Source of the DNA: a virus
Taxonomy: Duplodnaviria > Heunggongvirae > Uroviricota > Caudoviricetes
Length of the DNA stretch: 11,059 bases
Direction: 5' to 3' (one strand)
Virus record (IMG/VR): IMGVR_UViG_2645727680_000003
The notes under the pieces are model-generated. The model did no database searches, was not told where the DNA came from, and saw only the letters and a list, made by a program, of their open reading frames with translations. This document shows positions 2 through 6,683 of the stretch, piece by piece. A program made the position numbers and the translations under genes. How positions within the stretch are numbered: the stretch's first letter is position 1; each line of letters begins with the position of its first letter.

Positions 2-1495
2 GCTCATCCGGAAGAAATCGACAGCATCGTGGCCATCACCCGCGATATTGCCATTCAGGAAGACCGCCACGAGCTGGGCAATGATATTACTCCGCGCTTT
101 AAGGCGGAGTATGTCGACGGCTCAAAAGGCACACCAACCAGCTATATCGCGACCTACATCGGAAAGAACCTGGACAGCCGCGCCGTGGATGGCATCGACC
201 CGAAAACGGGCAAGCCACGCGTTGACCACGAAACCGGAAAATCAATGGTCGAGAGTGTGGAGCGCGCCATCGGCTGGGCGCGCCTTCATCGGGTCCGCCA
301 GTTCCAGTTCTTTGGCATCCCCTCCCGTCAGGTGTGGCGTGAACTGCGCCGCCTTGCCAGCCAGATGGCACGCAACCCGGAAGGCCCGCAACGACTGAAA
401 GATGACGCAATGGATGCGGTACTCGCTGCCGCCGATGCCGGGTGTTTTGCCACCTACATTGAAAAACAGGGCGGCGTACTTGTTCCACGCAAAGACTACC
501 TGATTCGCACCGCCTACGACCTCGCAGATGAGCTGAATGATTACGGCGAACAGAGCGTACAGATTTACGGGATCTGGTCACCACTCATCGGGGAATCCTC
601 CCGTGTGTGCACGCATCCGGATAACTGGAAACTGGTAAGACGTAAACCGGAAACGGAAGACAGCGCCCGCGAAAATGGTTTTGACCTTCAGGGCGGCCCT
701 GCCGCCCCTTGGACTCGTGGCAATAACTGTCCCCGTGTACAGGAAACGGACAACAACGGGACAGAACAGCCGGAAGAACGGCCAGCACCGTGGCCGCAGC
801 TCCCTGACGGCGTTGAAGTGAACGAATGGATGCGCTCACTGAAACGGCACGAACGCCGGGCGCTGATGCGTTCGCTTCGTGACAAACAGGCAAAAAACAG
901 CAGTGATGAAATGCAGAGCTGGACACAGAGCCGCAAACAGCAGCGGCCTTTGCCTGATAACCACGAATTACTCGCTAAAGAATGGCGGGAATCTGCCGAA
1001 TCTCTCGGCCTGCATATCGGTGAACAGCAGATGCAGCACCTGTTACGGGGCGGCAGCCTGTACGTTGACGGCAGCATCATTGCACCGCAGGGATTTGAAA
1101 TTGTACGCAAACCGGATACCCGCCCGGACAGCCGAATCACGCAGCTCTGGCAGCGCCTGAGCCGTAACCACGGCGTAAGCAGCACGGAGATCCGCCATAA
1201 CCCGGTCGCCAGCTATCTGGAACAGCTGGGGGCATCAGACCCCGAAGCCGCCGCACGCCTGGCATCCACACTTCAGCAAGACCAGAACACCATGAAAACA
1301 CCCGTTACCGTGCTTTCTGACATGCTGCGCGCCATCCGCGACGCAGAGCACGCACAGAGAATCAGTGAAACCACTGAACGCGCCCGCCGCAAAGCAGACC
1401 TGCTGCGGGGTGGCCTGACCAGTGGAAACAAAAAACAGACAGAAACGGGATTCACAAATCCCGTAAATGAGCAAAAAACGCGCCGCGATATATGA
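2..1495 (+). CDS. Replication initiation protein, rolling-circle endonuclease (P2 gpA-like), 5'-partial; C-terminal ~250 aa is a Q/R-rich extension
   Basis: Reading frame is open from base 2 to the TGA at 1493-1495, so the gene starts upstream of the window. Contains SYIATYIGKNLD, a Y-x-x-x-Y-x-x-K motif like the paired catalytic tyrosines of P2 gpA-type initiators. Position directly upstream of the cargo/cos region matches P2 synteny. Family assignment is from recollection, not a search. Confidence 0.6.
   Translation, partial: AHPEEIDSIVAITRDIAIQEDRHELGNDITPRFKAEYVDGSKGTPTSYIATYIGKNLDSRAVDGIDPKTGKPRVDHETGKSMVESVERAIGWARLHRVRQFQFFGIPSRQVWRELRRLASQMARNPEGPQRLKDDAMDAVLAAADAGCFATYIEKQGGVLVPRKDYLIRTAYDLADELNDYGEQSVQIYGIWSPLIGESSRVCTHPDNWKLVRRKPETEDSARENGFDLQGGPAAPWTRGNNCPRVQETDNNGTEQPEERPAPWPQLPDGVEVNEWMRSLKRHERRALMRSLRDKQAKNSSDEMQSWTQSRKQQRPLPDNHELLAKEWRESAESLGLHIGEQQMQHLLRGGSLYVDGSIIAPQGFEIVRKPDTRPDSRITQLWQRLSRNHGVSSTEIRHNPVASYLEQLGASDPEAAARLASTLQQDQNTMKTPVTVLSDMLRAIRDAEHAQRISETTERARRKADLLRGGLTSGNKKQTETGFTNPVNEQKTRRDI
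1445..1464. promoter_or_regulatory. Perfect 8-bp inverted repeat ACGGGATT-N4-AATCCCGT (copy 1), inside the 3' end of the replication gene; candidate ParR operator/centromere half
   Basis: Read directly: ACGGGATT 1445-1452, spacer CACA, AATCCCGT 1457-1464. A second near-identical copy lies 73 bp downstream. Confidence 0.4.
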
Positions 1496-1517
1496 AGCGC
1501 GCATAAAACAGGCAAAA

Positions 1518-1537
1518 ACGGGATTTCAGAATCCCGT
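1518..1537. promoter_or_regulatory. Perfect 8-bp inverted repeat ACGGGATT-N4-AATCCCGT (copy 2), 35 bp upstream of the parM-like start; candidate operator/parC-like site
   Basis: Read directly: ACGGGATT 1518-1525, spacer TCAG, AATCCCGT 1530-1537. Flanks AAACGGGATT / AATCCCGTAAA are shared with copy 1. AT-rich TTAATTAAT follows at 1544-1552, a possible -10 region. Confidence 0.4.
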
Positions 1538-1571
1538 AAACGATTAATTAATCAACATAAGGAAAAGCGAC

Positions 1572-2490
1572 ATGAAAATTTGTATCGATGACGGCTCCAC
1601 CAACATCAAGCTGGCATGGACTGAGAACGGCGAACGCCGCAACGCCATCAGCCCGAACAGCTTCAAGTCGGAATGGTCTGCGCCGTTCGGTGGCACGCAG
1701 CCCGCGAACTACATGCTTGATGGCGTGCGCTATGGTTTTGATCCGGTCAGCGATCGCTTTGTCCAGACGACCGACACGCAATACCAGTACAGCGATGTGA
1801 ATGTCATTGCCATTCATCACGCGCTGGTCAAATCAGGCATCACACCACAGGAAGTGGATGTGGTTGTCACCCTGCCACTGAGCGAATATTTCGACACAAA
1901 CGCACAGCCGGACATGGCCAACATCAACCGCAAAAAAGCAAACGTCATGCGCCCGGTGGCGTACCAGAACGGAAAAGCATTCACTATCCGTAACGTACGG
2001 GTTATGCCTGAATCCATTCCGGCTGGTTTTAAAGCACTGGCTGACATGAGTCCGTTTGAATCCCTGCTGATTGTGGATTTAGGCGGAACCACGCTGGATG
2101 TGGCAAAGGTTCAGGGACAACTGGCAGGTATCAGCCAGGTGTTTTGCGATCCACACGTAGGCGTTTCCCTGATGGCCGATGCCGTACTGTCGGTGATGGC
2201 CACTAACGGTATGCGTACCAGTCACCACATCGCCAATACCATTATCGAACATCGCCATAATGAAGCCTGGCTGCGCCAGCACATCCACAATGACGCGCAT
2301 TACGACAGCCTGATGGCGGTTATTCGTGAAAAGGAAGAAACACTGAAACAACGCGTGATCCGCGCGCTGGCGGGNNNNNNNNNNNNNNNNNNNNNNNNNN
2401 GAAGCCTGCGGAGTTAATGCGACTTTCATCGCGGACGGGGTGCCACAGTTTGCTCTGGTTAATGGGCTGTACGCAATGGACAAGGAGTAA
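1572..2490 (+). CDS. parM: ParM/StbA-like actin-family plasmid segregation ATPase; interrupted by an N-run at 2375-2400
   Basis: N-terminus MKICIDDGSTNIKLAW..ISPNSFK..QYSDVNVIAIHHAL..VMPESIPAG..LLIVDLGGTTLD matches plasmid R1 ParM (MLVFIDDGSTNIKLQW..ISPNSFK..QYSDVNVVAVHHAL..VMPESIPAG..LLIIDLGGTTLD) as I remember it. RBS AAGGA 1559-1563, ATG 1572. After the gap the frame starting at 2401 reads EACGVNATFIADGVPQFALVNGLYAMDKE and stops at TAA 2488-2490, resembling the ParM C-terminus DLVNGMYLIGN. The ORF track's stop at 2417 is an artefact of reading through the Ns. Confidence 0.85.
2375..2400. other. Run of 26 N (assembly gap or masked bases) inside the parM-like gene
   Basis: Read directly from the sequence. 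Confidence 0.97.
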
Positions 2491-2494
2491 ACCA

Positions 2495-2806
2495 ATGACG
2501 ACACCAACCAGACGGATAAGTTTCTATCTGAAGCCCGCCGCCGTCAAGAACGAAGGCGAAGCATGCGCCTGGCTGGACAGCCTTACACCAGAAGCCCGCA
2601 AAAGTGGTCAACGTGTGGCTTTTCTGGCCGGACTGGCACTTATGAAAATTAATCCGGCAGAGGCTTACCGACTGGCTGCATGGGCTGACGATGAAGCGTT
2701 ATCCCTGACACAAACCAGGACAGAACGCCCCGTGTCACAGCCAGCACCAACCGCACAGATAACCAGTCAGATGGCCGGAAATATCCGGGCGTTATTTCCT
2801 GAATAA
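2495..2806 (+). CDS. parR: ParR/StbB-like DNA-binding adaptor (small ribbon-helix-helix-type partition protein)
   Basis: MTTPTRRISFYLKP...LDSLTPEARKSGQRVAFLAGLAL...NIRALFPE parallels R1 ParR (..RRTIAFKLNP...LDSIPQGERSRLNRAALTAGLAL...ILRSLFP) as I remember it. RBS AAGGAG 2482-2487, ATG 2495, overlapping the parM stop, which implies translational coupling. The upstream extension to 2417 in the ORF track has no RBS and overlaps the parM 3' end. Confidence 0.75.
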   Translation: MTTPTRRISFYLKPAAVKNEGEACAWLDSLTPEARKSGQRVAFLAGLALMKINPAEAYRLAAWADDEALSLTQTRTERPVSQPAPTAQITSQMAGNIRALFPE

Positions 2807-2814
2807 CACAACGT

Positions 2815-2832
2815 CAGGGCGGGTTCGCCCTG
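2815..2832. other. Hairpin CAGGGCG-GGTT-CGCCCTG immediately downstream of parR-like; shares the CAGGGCG...CGCCCTGCT arms with the hairpin at 3408-3433
   Basis: Read directly: 7-bp stem, 4-nt loop, no T-run after it. Confidence 0.5.
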
Positions 2833-2869
2833 CTCTCCACCTCAGAACATAAACAAGGAGAACGACATA

Positions 2870-3394
2870 ATGAGCGAAATCAACTATCAGGCATTACGTG
2901 AGGCGGCACAAAACTATCAATCGACGCTGGCGTGGTATGAGGCCACCACGGATAACCCAAATGCTGAGCAGGATTGTAGCGAAGCAGTGGCGGCGTTTAA
3001 GCGTCAAATCCGTCATCAGGAAATGGACATTATCGCCGAGCTGCTGGAAGAGCTGGAAACCAAAGACAACAGGATCGCTGAACTGGAAAAAATCGCCACT
3101 GAGCATGCACTGAAATTCCAGAAAGCACAGGACGCATTAAAGTATGCCGCTTTGCTGCATAGCCGAACGGCGCAACAAACCAATAATTTTGCAGTATTGC
3201 TTCCGGACATAAGCGAATATTTCATTAATAACGTATTTCAGCCCTTGCGATACGAGCGGGATGTTGAAAGAGCCATCATAAAGGCTGGCGGAAAAGCATT
3301 GTGGCAGGAGAAGCACGAGGAAAGAACGCATCAGCTAAGTGATGTAAATAGTGGATGGTTATGCCCACTGACAGAAGGTAAAAAGAACACCTGA
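2870..3394 (+). CDS. Hypothetical 174-aa protein with a central coiled-coil (EELETKDNRIAELEKIATEHALKFQKAQDALKY); N-terminus YQALREAA loosely recalls ead/Ea22-like prophage proteins (tentative)
   Basis: Clean ORF with RBS AAGGAG 2855-2860 and ATG 2870. Heptad-like charged/hydrophobic pattern in the middle. The 3' half is visibly AT-richer than neighbouring genes. No confident family assignment. Confidence 0.6.
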   Translation: MSEINYQALREAAQNYQSTLAWYEATTDNPNAEQDCSEAVAAFKRQIRHQEMDIIAELLEELETKDNRIAELEKIATEHALKFQKAQDALKYAALLHSRTAQQTNNFAVLLPDISEYFINNVFQPLRYERDVERAIIKAGGKALWQEKHEERTHQLSDVNSGWLCPLTEGKKNT

Positions 3395-3407
3395 TTTCCT
3401 CTCAAAC

Positions 3408-3433
3408 CAGGGCGATAATCGCGCATCGCCCTG
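3408..3433. other. Hairpin CAGGGCGAT-N8-ATCGCCCTG, 14 bp downstream of the orf174 stop
   Basis: Read directly: 9-bp perfect stem, 8-nt loop. Same arm motif as the hairpin at 2815-2832. Not followed directly by a T-run. Confidence 0.5.
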
Positions 3434-3434
3434 C

Positions 3435-3461
3435 TGCACAATAGTGCACAAATTTGCACAA
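3435..3461. repeat. Three direct TGCACAA repeats phased at exactly 10 bp, followed by T7 (3462-3468); a fourth TGCACAA at 3527-3533
   Basis: Read directly: TGCACAA at 3435-3441, 3445-3451 and 3455-3461. Helical-turn phasing suggests a protein-binding array. Confidence 0.6.
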
Positions 3462-3504
3462 TTTTTTTGAACGACTTTTTGCCCTTCCGGCCCCCGTGGC
3501 GGCT

Positions 3505-3523
3505 GGATCCGTCAAGGATCCGT
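3505..3523. repeat. Tandem GGATCCGT repeats 11 bp apart, adjacent to the TGCATGCA palindrome
   Basis: Read directly: GGATCCGT at 3505-3512 and 3516-3523. Confidence 0.5.
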
Positions 3524-3834
3524 GCATGCACAAAAAAACGCGCTTTTTCTGCGCGCAGGTGACGGGGGAACAGCCCGCGTTTCAGGGGGTAAATAGCGTT
3601 CCCTTAACAATGTCGCAGCGACACGACAGAATGGCCGTATTTCTCACGCTGAGCGTGAAAAATACGTGAGGGATTCTGATTTGATGGGGTGAAAGGTAAG
3701 GCCGTCAAAATCGCACTGAGGCGGCGAGAACATGCAGTCAACGCGGTGGGATTGCGTAAGAGTCTGACCGTCGATGGTGGCGATAAATTGGAAGGCGTCG
3801 TGAAATTATCTGACTGATACAGGAGCTGGAGAGT

Positions 3835-3859
3835 CGGGGCATAAATTTTTTATGCCCCG
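3835..3859. other. Palindromic hairpin CGGGGCATA-AATTTTT-TATGCCCCG, 27 bp beyond the 3' end of portal gene Q; possible terminator or structural element at the end of the leftward P-Q operon
   Basis: Read directly: 9-bp stem, 7-nt loop. No U-run follows on either strand, so it is not a canonical intrinsic terminator. Confidence 0.3.
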
Positions 3860-3885
3860 GCGAAGCAGCAGACAAGCGAAGCGCG

Positions 3886-4932
3886 TCAGGATGTGGGCTG
3901 GGTGTCTAACAGTGCGTAAGGGTTAAAACGGATAACCTCTTCGCCAAGCCAGTCATTGATGTGCTTCATGGCCTCCATGACTGGCATCAGCTCGTTAATT
4001 GCGTAAACCCGCGCGGCCTTCTCCACATCACCAAACGCACTTTTTTCACCCGGCATCGCCCCCATCAGTTGCGGCGGAACGCGGTGCGCAGCCAGCACAT
4101 CATCACGGGATGCCGCCTTAACATTCATGAATTCATCCTTTGCGGTGATCTGCTGGAACGGCAAAATTTGCACCCCCTCTTTGCCCCCGTTGGGCGCATG
4201 AATGAGCACGTTTTTAAACGCACCACCACCACGTGCCCCCTGTAACGTTTCTTTCAGGGAGTCCATGCTTTCGCGGTTTACCTGCGCTGCACCGATGTAG
4301 ATGATGCACCCGGCGTGGGATCCGTTGTCGTAATACAGTTTTCTGAACATGTCCGCCGAATGAGACAGGCTGGCCGAGAGTAATGCGCCGAGATATTCCG
4401 GCATGCCGTAGATTTCCTGGTTAATATCTGGATTCATCAGGTGGCACACTTTGCCAGGGCGAAACTGAAACGCGTCCTTACCATCCTGCACATACCACCA
4501 TGATTCAAGATCGCTTCCGCGTCGCATGTATTTCGCCAGGGCGTGCCGTAATTTAAGCGGTTCGCCGAGCATATTGCTTCGAAGCTCAAGGAATGCGTTA
4601 CCGAACACAAACCAGTCCAGCGCCAGCGCCGAGAAATCCTGCCGGGAAAGCAGCGGGTGTGGAATATAGCAACCGAGCAATACATTGCGCTTAAAGTAAA
4701 GCGCAGACTGATGCCAGGACGTTTGCCGGGCAGCTCTTGCCAGACCGTACCAGTCCACCGGGGTTTCATACCACCGCCCGTTATCAGCACAGTACATATT
4801 GTCCAGCAGGTCATGCCCGGTCAGGCGATAAGGACCATCAAATGTGAATGCACTGAGCGATGATTCTTTCCTGAGCGCATCAGCGAGATCAATGCGTGAA
4901 CTCATGCGCACTTTTTTATTTTTTCTGCTCAT
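3886..4932 (-). CDS. Q: Portal protein (P2 gpQ-like)
   Basis: 348-aa ORF, similar in size to P2 gpQ and in the expected place: downstream of and coupled to the large terminase gene (ATGA overlap at 4930-4934), adjacent to the predicted cos region. Family assignment by synteny and recollection. Confidence 0.8.
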   Translation of the reverse strand: MSRKNKKVRMSSRIDLADALRKESSLSAFTFDGPYRLTGHDLLDNMYCADNGRWYETPVDWYGLARAARQTSWHQSALYFKRNVLLGCYIPHPLLSRQDFSALALDWFVFGNAFLELRSNMLGEPLKLRHALAKYMRRGSDLESWWYVQDGKDAFQFRPGKVCHLMNPDINQEIYGMPEYLGALLSASLSHSADMFRKLYYDNGSHAGCIIYIGAAQVNRESMDSLKETLQGARGGGAFKNVLIHAPNGGKEGVQILPFQQITAKDEFMNVKAASRDDVLAAHRVPPQLMGAMPGEKSAFGDVEKAARVYAINELMPVMEAMKHINDWLGEEVIRFNPYALLDTQPTS

Positions 4933-6683
4933 CAGAACTCCATAACCGTGAAACGCTCGTTTTCTCCTTCGCCGCCAATTGGTTCGTTAATGACAGCAAG
5001 CATGGTTGCCCACGCAAGGTCGCCGTGGCTGATCCCCCTCGCGCGGTCCGTTTCGTAAGTGATAAAGCCGCCCGGTGTTTTCACCTTACGCACGGCGTTA
5101 AAGGCCGCGACCAGCTCGCGTTCGGCGCGATCGTATTCCCACCGCCCGGCACGCATTATTTGCAGCATTTTCAGTACCAGCGACCGTTTTGATGACAGCG
5201 TGAAGGTGTACGGAATAGCGGCAGGGAAAAACCGTTTCACTATCTGATAAACAGCCTCCCCGTTCCCGCCCGTCACATCAATGCCGATGTGTTCCACGTT
5301 GTAGCGACACGTGAACTCTTCAATGACTCTGGCCTGTTCTTCAAACTCCAGCCCCTGAACGCGTCGCGTCTCCACCGTTCGAAAACGGCCACCAGGAACA
5401 GACGGAGGAACCACCACGGACACAGCGCCGCTGTCGCCGTTGCCACTGCTGCCGTTTGCGTCATACCCAATCCATACCGGACGATTCCCCATCGGGCGGG
5501 GAGCAAAAGGTTTCCAGTCTTTCCAGTCGTCGTATCCGTCAACACCGCAGCCAATCAGGATATTCAGGTTAAATGCCGATTCCCCTTCGCGGACAAACTC
5601 ACACATATAGAGATTGAGGAACTCGTCTTCGGTGTTTTCATCACGAATTTCGTCGATATCGGTGTGTTTCCAGCCGTGATTAACCACATCTTCCAGCGTG
5701 ACAATTTGCCGCCACGTCCGGTCAGGGCAGATAAGCCCGTTATGCAGCGTTTTCCAGTCCACAGAAAAACGCTGGCGTTTATGCGTGGCCTTTTTCTCGT
5801 TCCAGCGGTCGCCGTTCCAGTAGGCGTATGCCTCGTGCGTTTCGGTGGATGGCGTGGAGAAGTAGGTGCGCCGCCGTCCGCTGAGGGTTGCCATAGCGCC
5901 AGCCACCTTGCGCAGTTCAGCAAAGCGACTGACCCAGAAAAATTCATCAAAATAAAAATTGCCCGTATAGGACTGTGCCGACGCAGCAGAAGTGCCGAGA
6001 AAATGCAGCTCTGCGCCGTTGGAGAGGATGATTTTATCGCCCCCTTTCAACTCCACATCAACTTCAGCCGCGGCCTTCTGAATAATGCTTTTAAACTGGA
6101 ACGCCTGACGACGCGACGCAGACAAAAAAATCTGGTTACGCTGGTAAGGTTGCGCCACATCGTCACGCAGCGCCATCAGCAGCGCTTCCTGTGCAAAATA
6201 CCAGGTCGCCCCAATCTGTCGGGATTTCAGGATCATCCTGTTACGTATCCCTGCTTCCCTGCAAAGGGTCAGGGAGTCAAACCAGCCCCGCTGATGCCAC
6301 TCCAGCCTGCTGATGATTTTTTCCCGCAGTGCGGCAATCTGTTCCGGCGTGAAATGATTTTTAAGCTTTTTCGCCCGGCCTTTCTTTCCTGTGGCCGTCG
6401 CATCCGGCTGGCCATCATGCAGTTTTTTAAGCTGCCGGGTCAGCAGGTCTATTTCCTTGAAGTCACCACCTGTTTTATTCTGTTTTTCAGTGAGCTGGAT
6501 GAGGCGCGCATCGATGGACTGCGTGACACGCTGCACGGGTGGCGTTTCATCCCACTGGTCGCGTTTTTTCCACGCATAAATCGTGTTCGGGTTTATTCCC
6601 ATCAGACGTGATATTTCTGCGGGCGGATAACCCTGCCAGTAAAGTTGCCGCGCACGCTGGCGCACAAAAGCGTCCTGAATCAT
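4932..6683 (-). CDS. P: Terminase large (ATPase) subunit (P2 gpP-like)
   Basis: 583-aa ORF, similar in size to P2 gpP. Divergent from the O-N-M-L block, as in P2. RBS GGGGGAG upstream of the ATG at 6683 on the minus strand. Confidence 0.85.
   Translation of the reverse strand: MIQDAFVRQRARQLYWQGYPPAEISRLMGINPNTIYAWKKRDQWDETPPVQRVTQSIDARLIQLTEKQNKTGGDFKEIDLLTRQLKKLHDGQPDATATGKKGRAKKLKNHFTPEQIAALREKIISRLEWHQRGWFDSLTLCREAGIRNRMILKSRQIGATWYFAQEALLMALRDDVAQPYQRNQIFLSASRRQAFQFKSIIQKAAAEVDVELKGGDKIILSNGAELHFLGTSAASAQSYTGNFYFDEFFWVSRFAELRKVAGAMATLSGRRRTYFSTPSTETHEAYAYWNGDRWNEKKATHKRQRFSVDWKTLHNGLICPDRTWRQIVTLEDVVNHGWKHTDIDEIRDENTEDEFLNLYMCEFVREGESAFNLNILIGCGVDGYDDWKDWKPFAPRPMGNRPVWIGYDANGSSGNGDSGAVSVVVPPSVPGGRFRTVETRRVQGLEFEEQARVIEEFTCRYNVEHIGIDVTGGNGEAVYQIVKRFFPAAIPYTFTLSSKRSLVLKMLQIMRAGRWEYDRAERELVAAFNAVRKVKTPGGFITYETDRARGISHGDLAWATMLAVINEPIGGEGENERFTVMEF

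What the first reader, a model, noticed from the sequence alone, without database searches (positions are those of the whole stretch)
1572..3394. Plasmid-type ParM/ParR partition module plus an orphan gene in the gpA-cos cargo hotspot of a P2-like phage
The slot between replication gene A and cos is where P2 carries tin and old, and it has been reported as a hotspot for anti-phage cargo in P2-like prophages. Here it holds a type II (actin-like) partition pair and an unknown coiled-coil protein. A parMR module is not part of the canonical P2 gene set, as far as I recall. Three readings are possible: (a) the element can be maintained or positioned extrachromosomally, i.e. phage-plasmid-like behaviour or phage DNA positioning during replication; (b) the actin-like filament system has been co-opted for superinfection exclusion or defence; (c) a passively acquired plasmid fragment. 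The module looks functional: both genes are intact apart from the N-gap, have good ribosome-binding sites and are translationally coupled.
Basis: partly seen in the sequence, partly recalled or inferred. Interest (0 to 1): 0.8.

Follow-up and report, generated by a model that had tools for sequence, protein, structure and literature searches.

The report
ParMR partition module in P88-like phage
A P2-like E. coli phage carries a real, well-conserved actin-type plasmid-partition gene pair next to its replication gene, but this was already reported in 2022 and is annotated in over a thousand genomes, so only its untested function is still of interest.

Summary
Window 1572-2490 encodes ParM (E 1e-91 to plasmid R1 ParM). 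Window 2495-2806 encodes ParR/StbB (Pfam PF10784, E 2e-25). Both lie between replication gene A and cos/portal of a P2-like phage of the P88/Xuanwuvirus type. The N-run (2375-2400) replaces 67 nt inside parM. It is not a misjoin, because both flanks are colinear with over 1,300 complete E. coli chromosomes.

The interpretation needs three corrections:
- parMR is not variable cargo. It travels with the P88-type gene A (about 1,307 versus 1,354 genomes). It holds the same position in P2-like prophages of Plesiomonas, Hafnia, Serratia and Enterobacter, where ParM is 53-62% identical. It is under strong purifying selection (dN/dS about 0.08).
- No plasmid ParM is more than 53% identical, so it is not a recent plasmid fragment. 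The variable slot starts after parR.
- orf174 is an Ead/Ea22-like protein, not an orphan.

A candidate two-site centromere (GGG-N10-CCC, 73 bp apart) lies just upstream of parM.

Rousset et al. 2022 already reported that about a quarter of E. coli P2-like phages carry this putative partition system. I rate it already known, function untested, most likely segregation or positioning of the extrachromosomal phage circles.

The parts
29..1495 (+). 3' part of replication gene A (gpA, rolling-circle replication endonuclease, P88 type). This is context, and its last codons contain the distal centromere-like element.
   Evidence: Pfam Phage_GPA matches residues 2-51 of the ORF. Annotated 'replication endonuclease' in relatives 96-99% identical.
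1445..1464 (.). Distal 20-bp palindrome ACGGGATTCACAAATCCCGT (GGG-N10-CCC core), a candidate ParR-binding site (parC, distal).
   Evidence: One of only two matches in the window, against 0.03 expected. Part of a 42-nt direct repeat. Orthologous GGG-N10-CCC elements sit at the same distance from parM in Plesiomonas and Hafnia.
1518..1537 (.). Proximal 20-bp palindrome ACGGGATTTCAGAATCCCGT, 73 bp from the distal one, a candidate ParR-binding site (parC, proximal).
   Evidence: The RNA hairpin is stable only in the E. coli version, while the GGG/CCC arms and the spacing are conserved.
1547..1555 (+). Conserved ATTAATCAA box 25 nt upstream of the parM ATG. Its role is unknown; it may be part of a promoter or leader.
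   Evidence: Present at -25/-29 in E. coli, Plesiomonas and Hafnia. The consensus sigma-70 scan finds no promoter here.
1572..2490 (+). parM, actin-like partition ATPase (319 aa when the gap is filled). Interrupted by the N-run 2375-2400, which stands for 67 nt.
2375..2400 (.). Run of 26 N inside parM (assembly gap or mask). The real sequence is 67 nt and encodes the GGGA adenosine-binding motif.
   Evidence: Flanks are colinear with complete genomes.
2495..2806 (+). parR/stbB, the ParR adaptor (103 aa). N-terminal TRRISFYLKP strand region and C-terminal NIRALFPE tail.
   Evidence: Pfam PF10784 E 1.9e-25, PHROG 2515 'partition protein' E 1.5e-57, alignment with plasmid and phage ParRs.
2870..3394 (+). 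orf174, Ead/Ea22-like protein. It is the occupant of the truly variable slot between parR and cos.
   Evidence: PF13935 E 1.2e-14. The same gene is at this position in only 226 of about 1,300 genomes. Other genes fill the slot in P88, pZ1323PEC0009-2, O157, Plesiomonas, Hafnia, Serratia and Enterobacter.
3395..3885 (.). Non-coding cos-proximal spacer between the variable slot and the portal gene. Contains phased TGCACAA repeats and hairpins.
   Evidence: The position of cos between gpA and gpQ is as described for P2-like phages in PMC9122126. The exact cos cut site was not mapped.
3886..4932 (-). Portal gene Q (context; right border of the gpA-gpQ interval).

Best explanation
This is a genuine type II (ParMRC-type) DNA segregation module. 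It is a vertically inherited, fixed part of the early/replication gene block in one sub-lineage of P2-like phages: P88/Xuanwuvirus in E. coli, with relatives in Plesiomonas, Hafnia, Serratia and Enterobacter.

Proposed mechanism:
1. ParR, a ribbon-helix-helix adaptor, binds the paired GGG-N10-CCC sites just upstream of parM. These would form a minimal two-site centromere.
2. The conserved C-terminal tail of ParR captures the ends of ATP-ParM filaments.
3. Filament growth pushes apart copies of the circular phage genome.

The module acts on the extrachromosomal form only. That form exists after infection or excision, when gpA-driven rolling-circle replication makes monomeric circles. The module would distribute or position these copies. 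This could ensure that both daughter cells inherit the element before integration or during transient excision, or it could organise replication and packaging. It has nothing to segregate while the prophage is integrated.

Shown: protein identities, synteny, conservation, purifying selection, and the conserved cis-elements.
Inferred: ParR binding to those elements, the timing of expression (no terminator or consensus promoter was found between gene A and parM, so read-through from the early operon is assumed), and the biological benefit.
For: - ParM matches R1 ParM over its full length at E 1e-91. The phosphate-1 (DDGSTN), catalytic Glu (MPESIPAG) and phosphate-2 (DLGGTT) motifs are intact. 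The GGGA motif is present in relatives 98% identical.
- ParR matches PF10784 and shares the C-terminal N-[IA]-x-x-[LM]-F-[PG]-[DE] tail with plasmid ParRs.
- The order gpA - parM - parR - variable genes - portal is conserved in five genera, with ParM identity falling to 53-62%.
- In complete E. coli genomes, parM occurs in about 1,307 genomes and the P88-type gpA in 1,354.
- dN/dS for parM is 0.08-0.10, equal to that of the essential gene A at 0.079.
- Phage ParMs cluster apart from plasmid ParMs. The E. coli + Plesiomonas + Hafnia clade has 100% bootstrap support.
- Two GGG-N10-CCC elements lie 72-73 bp apart at -52 and -125 from the parM start in three lineages. They occur nowhere else in the window or in the 42.5-kb locus L001, which holds most of the prophage and its chromosomal flank. 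In Hafnia the distal copy lies in a different upstream gene.
- A second lineage has different conserved arms together with a different ParR N-terminus.
- Precedents exist. SrpMRC stabilises the excised SXT/R391 ICE (PMC4489591). AlpAC of prophage CGP3 is needed for efficient phage replication (PMC4446434).
- One complete P88-like genome is deposited as a 34.5-kb circular plasmid.
Against: - No experiment exists for this module.
- The putative centromere has only two sites, whereas R1 parC has ten iterons. ParR binding to them is untested.
- In E. coli the palindromes could instead act as hairpins or as minus-strand terminators.
- No consensus promoter was found, so the timing of expression is a guess.
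- The element is integrated in 1,453 of 1,455 places, so any extrachromosomal phase must be transient.
- A degraded O157 prophage keeps parMR intact. This could mean selection in the lysogen for something other than phage DNA segregation.
Confidence: 0.6

Rival explanations
1. Phage-plasmid lifestyle: the module lets these phages persist stably as low-copy plasmid prophages, as suggested in Rousset et al. 2022.
For: The suggestion is in PMC9122126. One full-length circular 34.5-kb 'plasmid' record, NZ_CP148288.1, is a whole P88-like phage. The P1-like phage-plasmid D6 uses a StbA/StbB pair that is 47.5% identical.
Against: 1,453 of 1,455 places in complete E. coli genomes are chromosomal. The integrase, repressor and Cox genes are retained, also in the 'plasmid' record. 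No plasmid-type replicon is annotated next to the module, and the plasmid record carries no replicon type. A 99.9% identical copy of that 'plasmid' phage is chromosomal in another strain. The circular contig may simply be induced phage DNA.
Confidence: 0.12
2. Defence or superinfection exclusion: the actin-like pair has been co-opted as anti-phage or anti-plasmid cargo of the gpA-gpQ hotspot.
For: It lies in the interval that holds tin/old in P2 and many defence systems (PMC9122126). It stays intact in a decayed O157 prophage. Defence-like genes (KAP NTPase, HicAB) sit right beside it.
Against: PADLOC finds no match for ParM or ParR. The pair is fixed in the lineage rather than variable. It keeps all the hallmarks of a working partition system, including a cis-element that co-varies with ParR. 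ParR is only 17-27% identical to the plasmid ParRs compared, so interference with resident plasmids is unlikely.
Confidence: 0.07
3. Passively acquired, functionless plasmid fragment, or an assembly chimera at the N-gap.
For: The proteins belong to families known from plasmids. There is an N-run inside parM.
Against: Both sides of the gap are colinear with over 1,300 complete chromosomes, and the gap fills in frame. The closest plasmid ParM that is not the phage itself is 52.6% identical. The position is conserved across genera. dN/dS is about 0.08.
Confidence: 0.02
4. The two palindromes upstream of parM are RNA hairpins (transcript-stability elements or terminators), not a centromere. The real ParR site is elsewhere or absent.
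For: The terminator scan flags them on the minus strand. The E. coli hairpins fold at -11 kcal/mol with z about -4.
Against: The orthologous elements in Plesiomonas and Hafnia fold weakly (z between 0 and -1.7), yet they keep GGG-N10-CCC and the 72-73 bp spacing. There is no T-run on the + strand. The portal gene already has its own hairpin at 3835-3859.
Confidence: 0.15

Closest known systems
ParMRC (parA/stb locus) of plasmid R1/NR1
   Same: Same gene order, parM then parR, with cis repeats upstream of parM. ParM aligns end to end (E 1e-91, about 50% identity) with all nucleotide-binding motifs. ParR is in the same Pfam family (PF10784) and has the same kind of C-terminal tail.
   Different: It sits on an integrating P2-like phage directly after replication gene A. 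ParR is shorter (103 aa against 138-140 aa in the two plasmid ParRs compared), lacking about 30 aa of linker. The candidate centromere has two palindromic sites 73 bp apart instead of ten 11-bp iterons (the R1 figure is from my own knowledge). No consensus promoter was found between the sites.
Putative partition system of E. coli P2-like prophages noted by Rousset et al. 2022 (PMC9122126)
   Same: This is the same thing. That paper states that about a quarter of E. coli P2-like phages carry it between gpA and gpQ. I find it in 1,307 of 5,426 complete genomes.
   Different: The paper lists it among the contents of the hotspot and does not analyse it. The present work shows three things: it is lineage-fixed and also present outside E. 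coli, it has a candidate centromere, and it has no close plasmid donor.
SrpMRC of SXT/R391 integrative conjugative elements (PMC4489591)
   Same: A type II partition system on an element that normally sits integrated in the chromosome. It is shown to stabilise the transient excised, rolling-circle-replicating form. This is the best functional analogy.
   Different: SrpM is only distantly related to R1 ParM and SrpR has no ParR homology, according to the paper. The element is an ICE, not a phage, and the module is in one operon with int rather than after the replication gene.
AlpAC (alpS) of Corynebacterium glutamicum prophage CGP3 (PMC4446434)
   Same: [quoted passage not shown] It is induced early after excision and is needed for efficient replication of the circular phage DNA.
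   Different: A different actin-like family in a Gram-positive host. The gene order is adaptor first. There is no detectable sequence relation to this ParM/ParR pair.
StbA/StbB of P1-like phage-plasmid D6
   Same: The only other phage in the 50,697-record collection with a ParM of this family (47.5% identical). Its annotators noted the similarity to P88 StbA.
   Different: D6 is a 91-kb P1-like phage, a type that persists as a plasmid prophage (from my own knowledge), so there the module is an ordinary plasmid-maintenance function.

Membership tests
Type II (ParMRC) partition system | Actin-fold ATPase ParM with StbA_N and ParM C-terminal domains | tested here: met
   Pfam E 4e-82 and 6e-45. 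R1 ParM PDB 1mwk E 1e-91, residues 2-316 against 2-318.
Type II (ParMRC) partition system | Intact nucleotide-binding and catalytic motifs (phosphate 1, catalytic Glu, phosphate 2, adenosine GGGA) | tested here: met
   D6 D7 G8 S9 T10, E147, D169 G171 G172 T173 T174 are invariant across 25 ParMs, including this one. G279-A282 lies under the N-run in the window but is present in relatives 98-99% identical.
Type II (ParMRC) partition system | Small ParR adaptor gene immediately downstream of parM, from the ParR/StbB family (RHH DNA binder) | tested here: met
   PF10784 E 1.9e-25, 88.9 bits against a cut-off of 25. PHROG 2515. The RHH fold itself was not confirmed, because the single-sequence AlphaFold model has pLDDT 50.6.
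Type II (ParMRC) partition system | ParR C-terminal tail that binds ParM | tested here: inconclusive
   A C-terminal motif N-[IA]-x-x-[LM]-F-[PG]-[DE] is shared by the phage and plasmid ParRs. Binding cannot be tested here.
Type II (ParMRC) partition system | Cis-acting centromere parC: repeated ParR-binding sites upstream of parM | tested here: inconclusive
   Two unique palindromes at 1445-1464 and 1518-1537. Their position and spacing are conserved in three lineages. A different conserved pair occurs in a lineage with a different ParR N-terminus. There are only two sites and binding is untested.
Type II (ParMRC) partition system | Filament formation and stabilisation of an unstable replicon | not testable with these tools
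   Needs experiments. No published test was found.
Variable anti-phage cargo of the P2 gpA-gpQ hotspot | Located between gpA and gpQ/cos | tested here: met
   Hotspot definition in PMC9122126.
Variable anti-phage cargo of the P2 gpA-gpQ hotspot | Presence or absence varies among otherwise closely related phages | tested here: not met
   parM is in about 1,307 genomes and the P88-type gpA in 1,354. The same position is kept in five genera. The criterion is met only for the slot after parR: the orf174 type occurs in 226 genomes.
Variable anti-phage cargo of the P2 gpA-gpQ hotspot | Similarity to a known or candidate defence protein | tested here: not met
   PADLOC finds no family for ParM or ParR. 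orf174 has only a weak hit at E 0.0022.
Phage-plasmids (P1/N15/SSU5-like) | Prophage maintained extrachromosomally | tested here: not met
   1,453 of 1,455 places are on chromosomes. There is one phage-sized circular record in PLSDB. The integrase is present.
Ead/Ea22-like family (orf174) | Match to Pfam PF13935 above the gathering score | tested here: met
   55.5 bits against 27, E 1.2e-14, residues 2-116. Mosaic similarity to EaA, Ea22 and Sb32 of lambdoid and P22-like phages.

The most novel reading that the evidence does not exclude
The ParMRC module is an ancestral, core part of the replication block of a whole sub-lineage of P2-like phages. It works with a minimal two-site centromere to segregate or position the gpA-generated monomeric phage circles during establishment, transient excision or lytic growth, and not to maintain a plasmid prophage. 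If so, it would be an actin-filament DNA-positioning system in an ordinary integrating E. coli phage, and I found no published example of that. It would also be a natural minimal parC for studying how few ParR sites suffice to cap a ParM filament.
Probability: 0.4. Interest if true: 0.55.

Novelty: already known. Interest (0 to 1): 0.3.

Why it matters
About a quarter of complete E. coli genomes carry this module, including O157:H7, O104:H4, O26, O103, O111, O145 and ST131 strains. Nobody has tested what an actin-type segregation machine does for a phage that integrates.

If it acts on the transient circular form, it would link phage, ICE and plasmid strategies for avoiding loss of an excised element. 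It would also offer a compact, genetically tractable ParMRC with only two candidate centromere sites.

Practically, analyses of the P2 gpA-gpQ defence hotspot should place the left border of the variable region after parR in this lineage. Otherwise parMR inflates counts of 'cargo'.

Tried and rejected
- Misjoin at the N-gap: rejected.
- Recent plasmid origin: rejected. A tblastn search of 72,556 plasmids gives 52.6% identity at most, apart from six records that carry the phage itself.
- Defence family membership: PADLOC finds nothing.
- ParR against solved structures: only chance antibody hits at E above 0.7.
- orf174 against solved structures: nothing.
- ParR fold by AlphaFold. The single-sequence model has pLDDT 50.6 and is uninformative.
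- My first degenerate pattern for the palindrome had the wrong spacer length and returned only chance hits.
- The search for related loci on one genome per species returned only three near-identical loci. Divergent loci came instead from the protein search plus contig look-ups.
- I tried to find out whether the strain with the 34.5-kb circular copy also carries an integrated copy. Its assembly is not in the E. coli collection, so this stays undecided.
- Literature searches for functional or expression data found only annotation-level mentions. I searched on P2-like + ParM, Xuanwuvirus, phage P88, Peduoviridae + ParM, and CP-933T + partition.
- I looked for a citable source for P2 replication and packaging of monomeric circles and did not find one in the library. 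That statement rests on my own knowledge.
- The sigma-70 consensus scan found no promoter upstream of parM.
Full report
**1. What is in the window.**
The window is a piece of a P2-like phage. The 3' part of replication gene A lies at 29-1495 (+). Three + strand ORFs follow at 1572-3394, then a non-coding stretch of about 490 bp. After that come the portal (3886-4932, -), large terminase (4932-6683, -), scaffold, major capsid, small terminase and head-completion genes. At DNA level it is 94-97% identical over the aligned parts to Escherichia phage P88 and other members of the genus Xuanwuvirus (Peduoviridae). It is 96-98% identical over the whole 1400-3900 interval to prophages in complete E. 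coli chromosomes.

**2. Check of the observation.**
- ORF 1 is ParM. Pfam gives StbA_N at E 4e-82 and the ParM C-terminal domain at E 6e-45. It aligns end to end with plasmid R1 ParM (PDB 1mwk) at E 1e-91.
- As written, the N-run 2375-2400 shifts the frame. The mechanical ORF ends at 2417, and the true C-terminus is read in the frame of 2401-2490.
- In the closest complete genome (E. coli U90) the 26 N correspond to 67 nt. These restore the frame and give a 319-aa protein containing the VVGGGA adenosine motif.
- Both flanks of the gap are colinear with more than 1,300 complete chromosomes. The gap is therefore an ordinary intragenic gap and not a plasmid/phage misjoin.
- ORF 2 (2495-2806, 103 aa) is ParR/StbB. 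Pfam Plasmid_stab_B gives E 1.9e-25 and PHROG 2515 'partition protein' gives E 1.5e-57. It starts 4 nt after the parM stop, behind an AGGAG.
- ORF 3 (2870-3394) is not an orphan. It matches Ead/Ea22-like PF13935 at E 1.2e-14. It shows mosaic similarity to EaA, Ea22 and Sb32 proteins of lambdoid and P22-like phages, and a 60% identical homologue sits in the same slot of Xuanwuvirus P884B11.

**3. parMR is lineage core, not hotspot cargo.**
- In 5,426 complete E. coli genomes, parM(R) DNA is found in 1,307 genomes, with 1,453 of 1,455 places on chromosomes. The P88-type gene A is found at 80% coverage or more in 1,354 genomes.
- The whole interval including orf174 is found in only 226 genomes.
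- The slot after parR holds different genes in different elements:
  - phage P88: two small ORFs;
  - pZ1323PEC0009-2: a 135-aa ORF;
  - O157:H7: IS1203.
- The large protein database has ParM relatives at 53-62% identity. Every one I looked up lies in a P2-like prophage in the same place:
  - Plesiomonas: gpA-parM-parR-orf-ogr-portal;
  - Hafnia: gpA-orf167-parM-parR-2 orfs-ogr-portal;
  - Serratia: gpA-parM-parR-HicAB-orf-transposase-portal;
  - Enterobacter ludwigii: gpA-2 orfs-parM-parR-KAP NTPase-orf-portal.
- In a neighbour-joining tree these phage ParMs group apart from plasmid ParMs. E. coli + Plesiomonas + Hafnia has 100% bootstrap support. The wider clade that includes Serratia and Enterobacter has only 55%.
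- dN/dS for parM between E. coli alleles is 0.08-0.10, the same as for the essential gene A at 0.079.

**4. Not a recent plasmid fragment.**
A tblastn search of ParM against 72,556 plasmids hits more than 5,000 records. Only six are 95-99% identical, and at least three of those also carry the adjacent phage genes. The next best is 52.6%. Among 50,697 phage records the family occurs only in P88-like phages and, at 47.5%, in the P1-like phage-plasmid D6.

**5. A candidate centromere.**
- Upstream of parM there is a 42-nt direct repeat (1429-1470 and 1502-1543). Each copy contains a 20-bp palindrome, ACGGGATT-N4-AATCCCGT. The two copies are 73 bp apart, and the first lies inside the last codons of gene A.
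- The pattern occurs nowhere else in the window (0.03 expected by chance). It also occurs nowhere else in the 42.5-kb locus L001, which holds most of the prophage and its chromosomal flank.
- Plesiomonas and Hafnia have diverged strongly in this region. Each still has exactly two GGG-N10-CCC elements, 72-73 bp apart. They lie at -59/-131 and -55/-128 from the parM ATG, against -52/-125 in E. coli. A conserved ATTAATCAA box lies at -25/-29.
- In Hafnia the distal element lies inside a different upstream gene. The elements therefore belong to the parMR module and not to gene A.
- Their RNA hairpins are stable only in E. coli (-11 kcal/mol, z about -4). They are not stable in the other two genera. 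This argues for a DNA-protein site rather than an RNA structure.
- Serratia, Enterobacter and a metagenomic relative share a different pair of conserved arms, GGGAAC..ATAGAAAAAT and ATTTTTCT..GTTCCC, around a variable 26-28-bp spacer. In Serratia, the one member of this group whose ParR I aligned, the ParR N-terminus is NRKISFYLKP instead of TRR[IV]SFYL[KN]P.
- This co-variation is what one expects of a ParR/parC pair, but binding is untested.
- Two sites is far fewer than the ten iterons of R1 parC (from my own knowledge of R1).

**6. ParR features.**
Phage and plasmid ParRs share the N-terminal region and a C-terminal N-[IA]-x-x-[LM]-F-[PG]-[DE] tail. The phage protein lacks about 30 residues of linker. 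E. coli prophages carry two parR alleles that are 52% identical overall. Their first 18 residues and their C-terminal tail are identical, and the upstream palindromes are the same for both alleles.

**7. Mechanism.**
The best-supported reading is a working ParMRC machine that acts on the circular, extrachromosomal phage genome.
- P2-type phages replicate by gpA-initiated rolling circle replication into monomeric circles, which are also the packaging substrate. This is my own knowledge of P2 biology; I could not find a citable text in the library.
- No + strand terminator and no consensus promoter separate gene A from parM. Co-expression with the early/replication operon is therefore plausible but is an inference.
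- Two experimentally studied analogues exist. SrpMRC stabilises the excised, replicating form of SXT/R391 ICEs (PMC4489591). AlpAC of prophage CGP3 tethers circular phage DNA to actin-like filaments and is needed for efficient replication (PMC4446434).
- Stable plasmid-prophage maintenance is not what the genome data show. Nearly all copies are integrated and the integrase is retained. One 34.5-kb circular record exists. An almost identical phage is chromosomal in another strain, and I could not check the same strain.
- Defence has no positive support.

**8. Comparison with what is known, and novelty.**
The genes are annotated 'plasmid segregation protein ParM' and 'plasmid partitioning/stability family protein' throughout RefSeq. 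The D6 annotators cite 'phage P88 StbA'. The Citrobacter rodentium phiSM paper lists the gene as a fitness factor (PMC6456863).

This analysis adds the following:
- the fixed position and deep conservation of the module;
- the absence of a close plasmid donor;
- strong purifying selection;
- a two-site candidate centromere that co-varies with ParR;
- the placing of the real variable slot after parR.

No functional study was found.

**9. Verdict.**
The feature is real and ordinary in the sense of being known and abundant. Its function is an open but modest question. Interest 0.3; novelty 'already known'.

Noticed in passing
window 2495-2806; L003 4465-4779: E. coli P88-like prophages carry two parR alleles that are only 52% identical. 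Both share the first 18 residues and the C-terminal NIxxLFPE, and both have the same upstream palindromes. In about half of the genomes, DNA similarity to the window stops at about 2549. This looks like allelic replacement of the ParR core, perhaps to avoid cross-talk between co-resident prophages (up to 3 copies per genome).
   Followed up: partly
window 29-1495: Only residues 2-51 of this gene A fragment match the end of Pfam Phage_GPA. The remaining roughly 437 C-terminal residues have no family match. P88-type gpA is about 940 aa, against 785-907 aa in the other P2-like loci examined.
   Followed up: no
L002 (NZ_CP148288.1, 1-34461): A complete P88-like phage genome, with integrase, repressor and cox, is deposited as a circular non-mobilizable 'plasmid' pZ1323PEC0009-2. 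A 99.9% identical copy is chromosomal in strain Z1323HEC0067. I could not determine whether the first strain also has an integrated copy.
   Followed up: partly
L003 (E. coli O157:H7 strain 2149, 3501-6075): This prophage is truncated by IS1203 directly after parR and has lost its head genes. Even so, gene A, parM and parR remain intact.
   Followed up: no
window 3435-3461 and 3527-3533: Three TGCACAA repeats phased exactly 10 bp apart, plus a fourth 72 bp further on. All lie in the cos-proximal spacer, and they are the only four copies in the window. They may be a protein-binding array (terminase or a host factor).
   Followed up: partly
window 3835-3859: A perfect 11-bp inverted repeat (CGGGGCATAAA/TTTATGCCCCG) lies 27 bp past the portal gene stop. 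It is probably the terminator of the leftward late operon.
   Followed up: no
L006 (Vagococcus sp. WN89Y contig NZ_JBQPOM010000071.1): A genome labelled Vagococcus (Firmicutes) holds a 226-kb contig encoding a ParM 97% identical to the E. coli phage protein. The assembly is almost certainly contaminated with Enterobacterales DNA.
   Followed up: no
L013 9450-10084; L014 9411-10757: The slot right after parR holds a HicAB toxin-antitoxin pair in the Serratia prophage and a KAP-family NTPase in the Enterobacter prophage. This fits the idea that the defence/cargo hotspot begins after parR.
   Followed up: no
window 2815-2832 and 3408-3433: GC-rich hairpins sharing the arm CAGGGCG...CGCCCTG flank orf174 on both sides. 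They may mark the borders of the exchangeable cassette.
   Followed up: no
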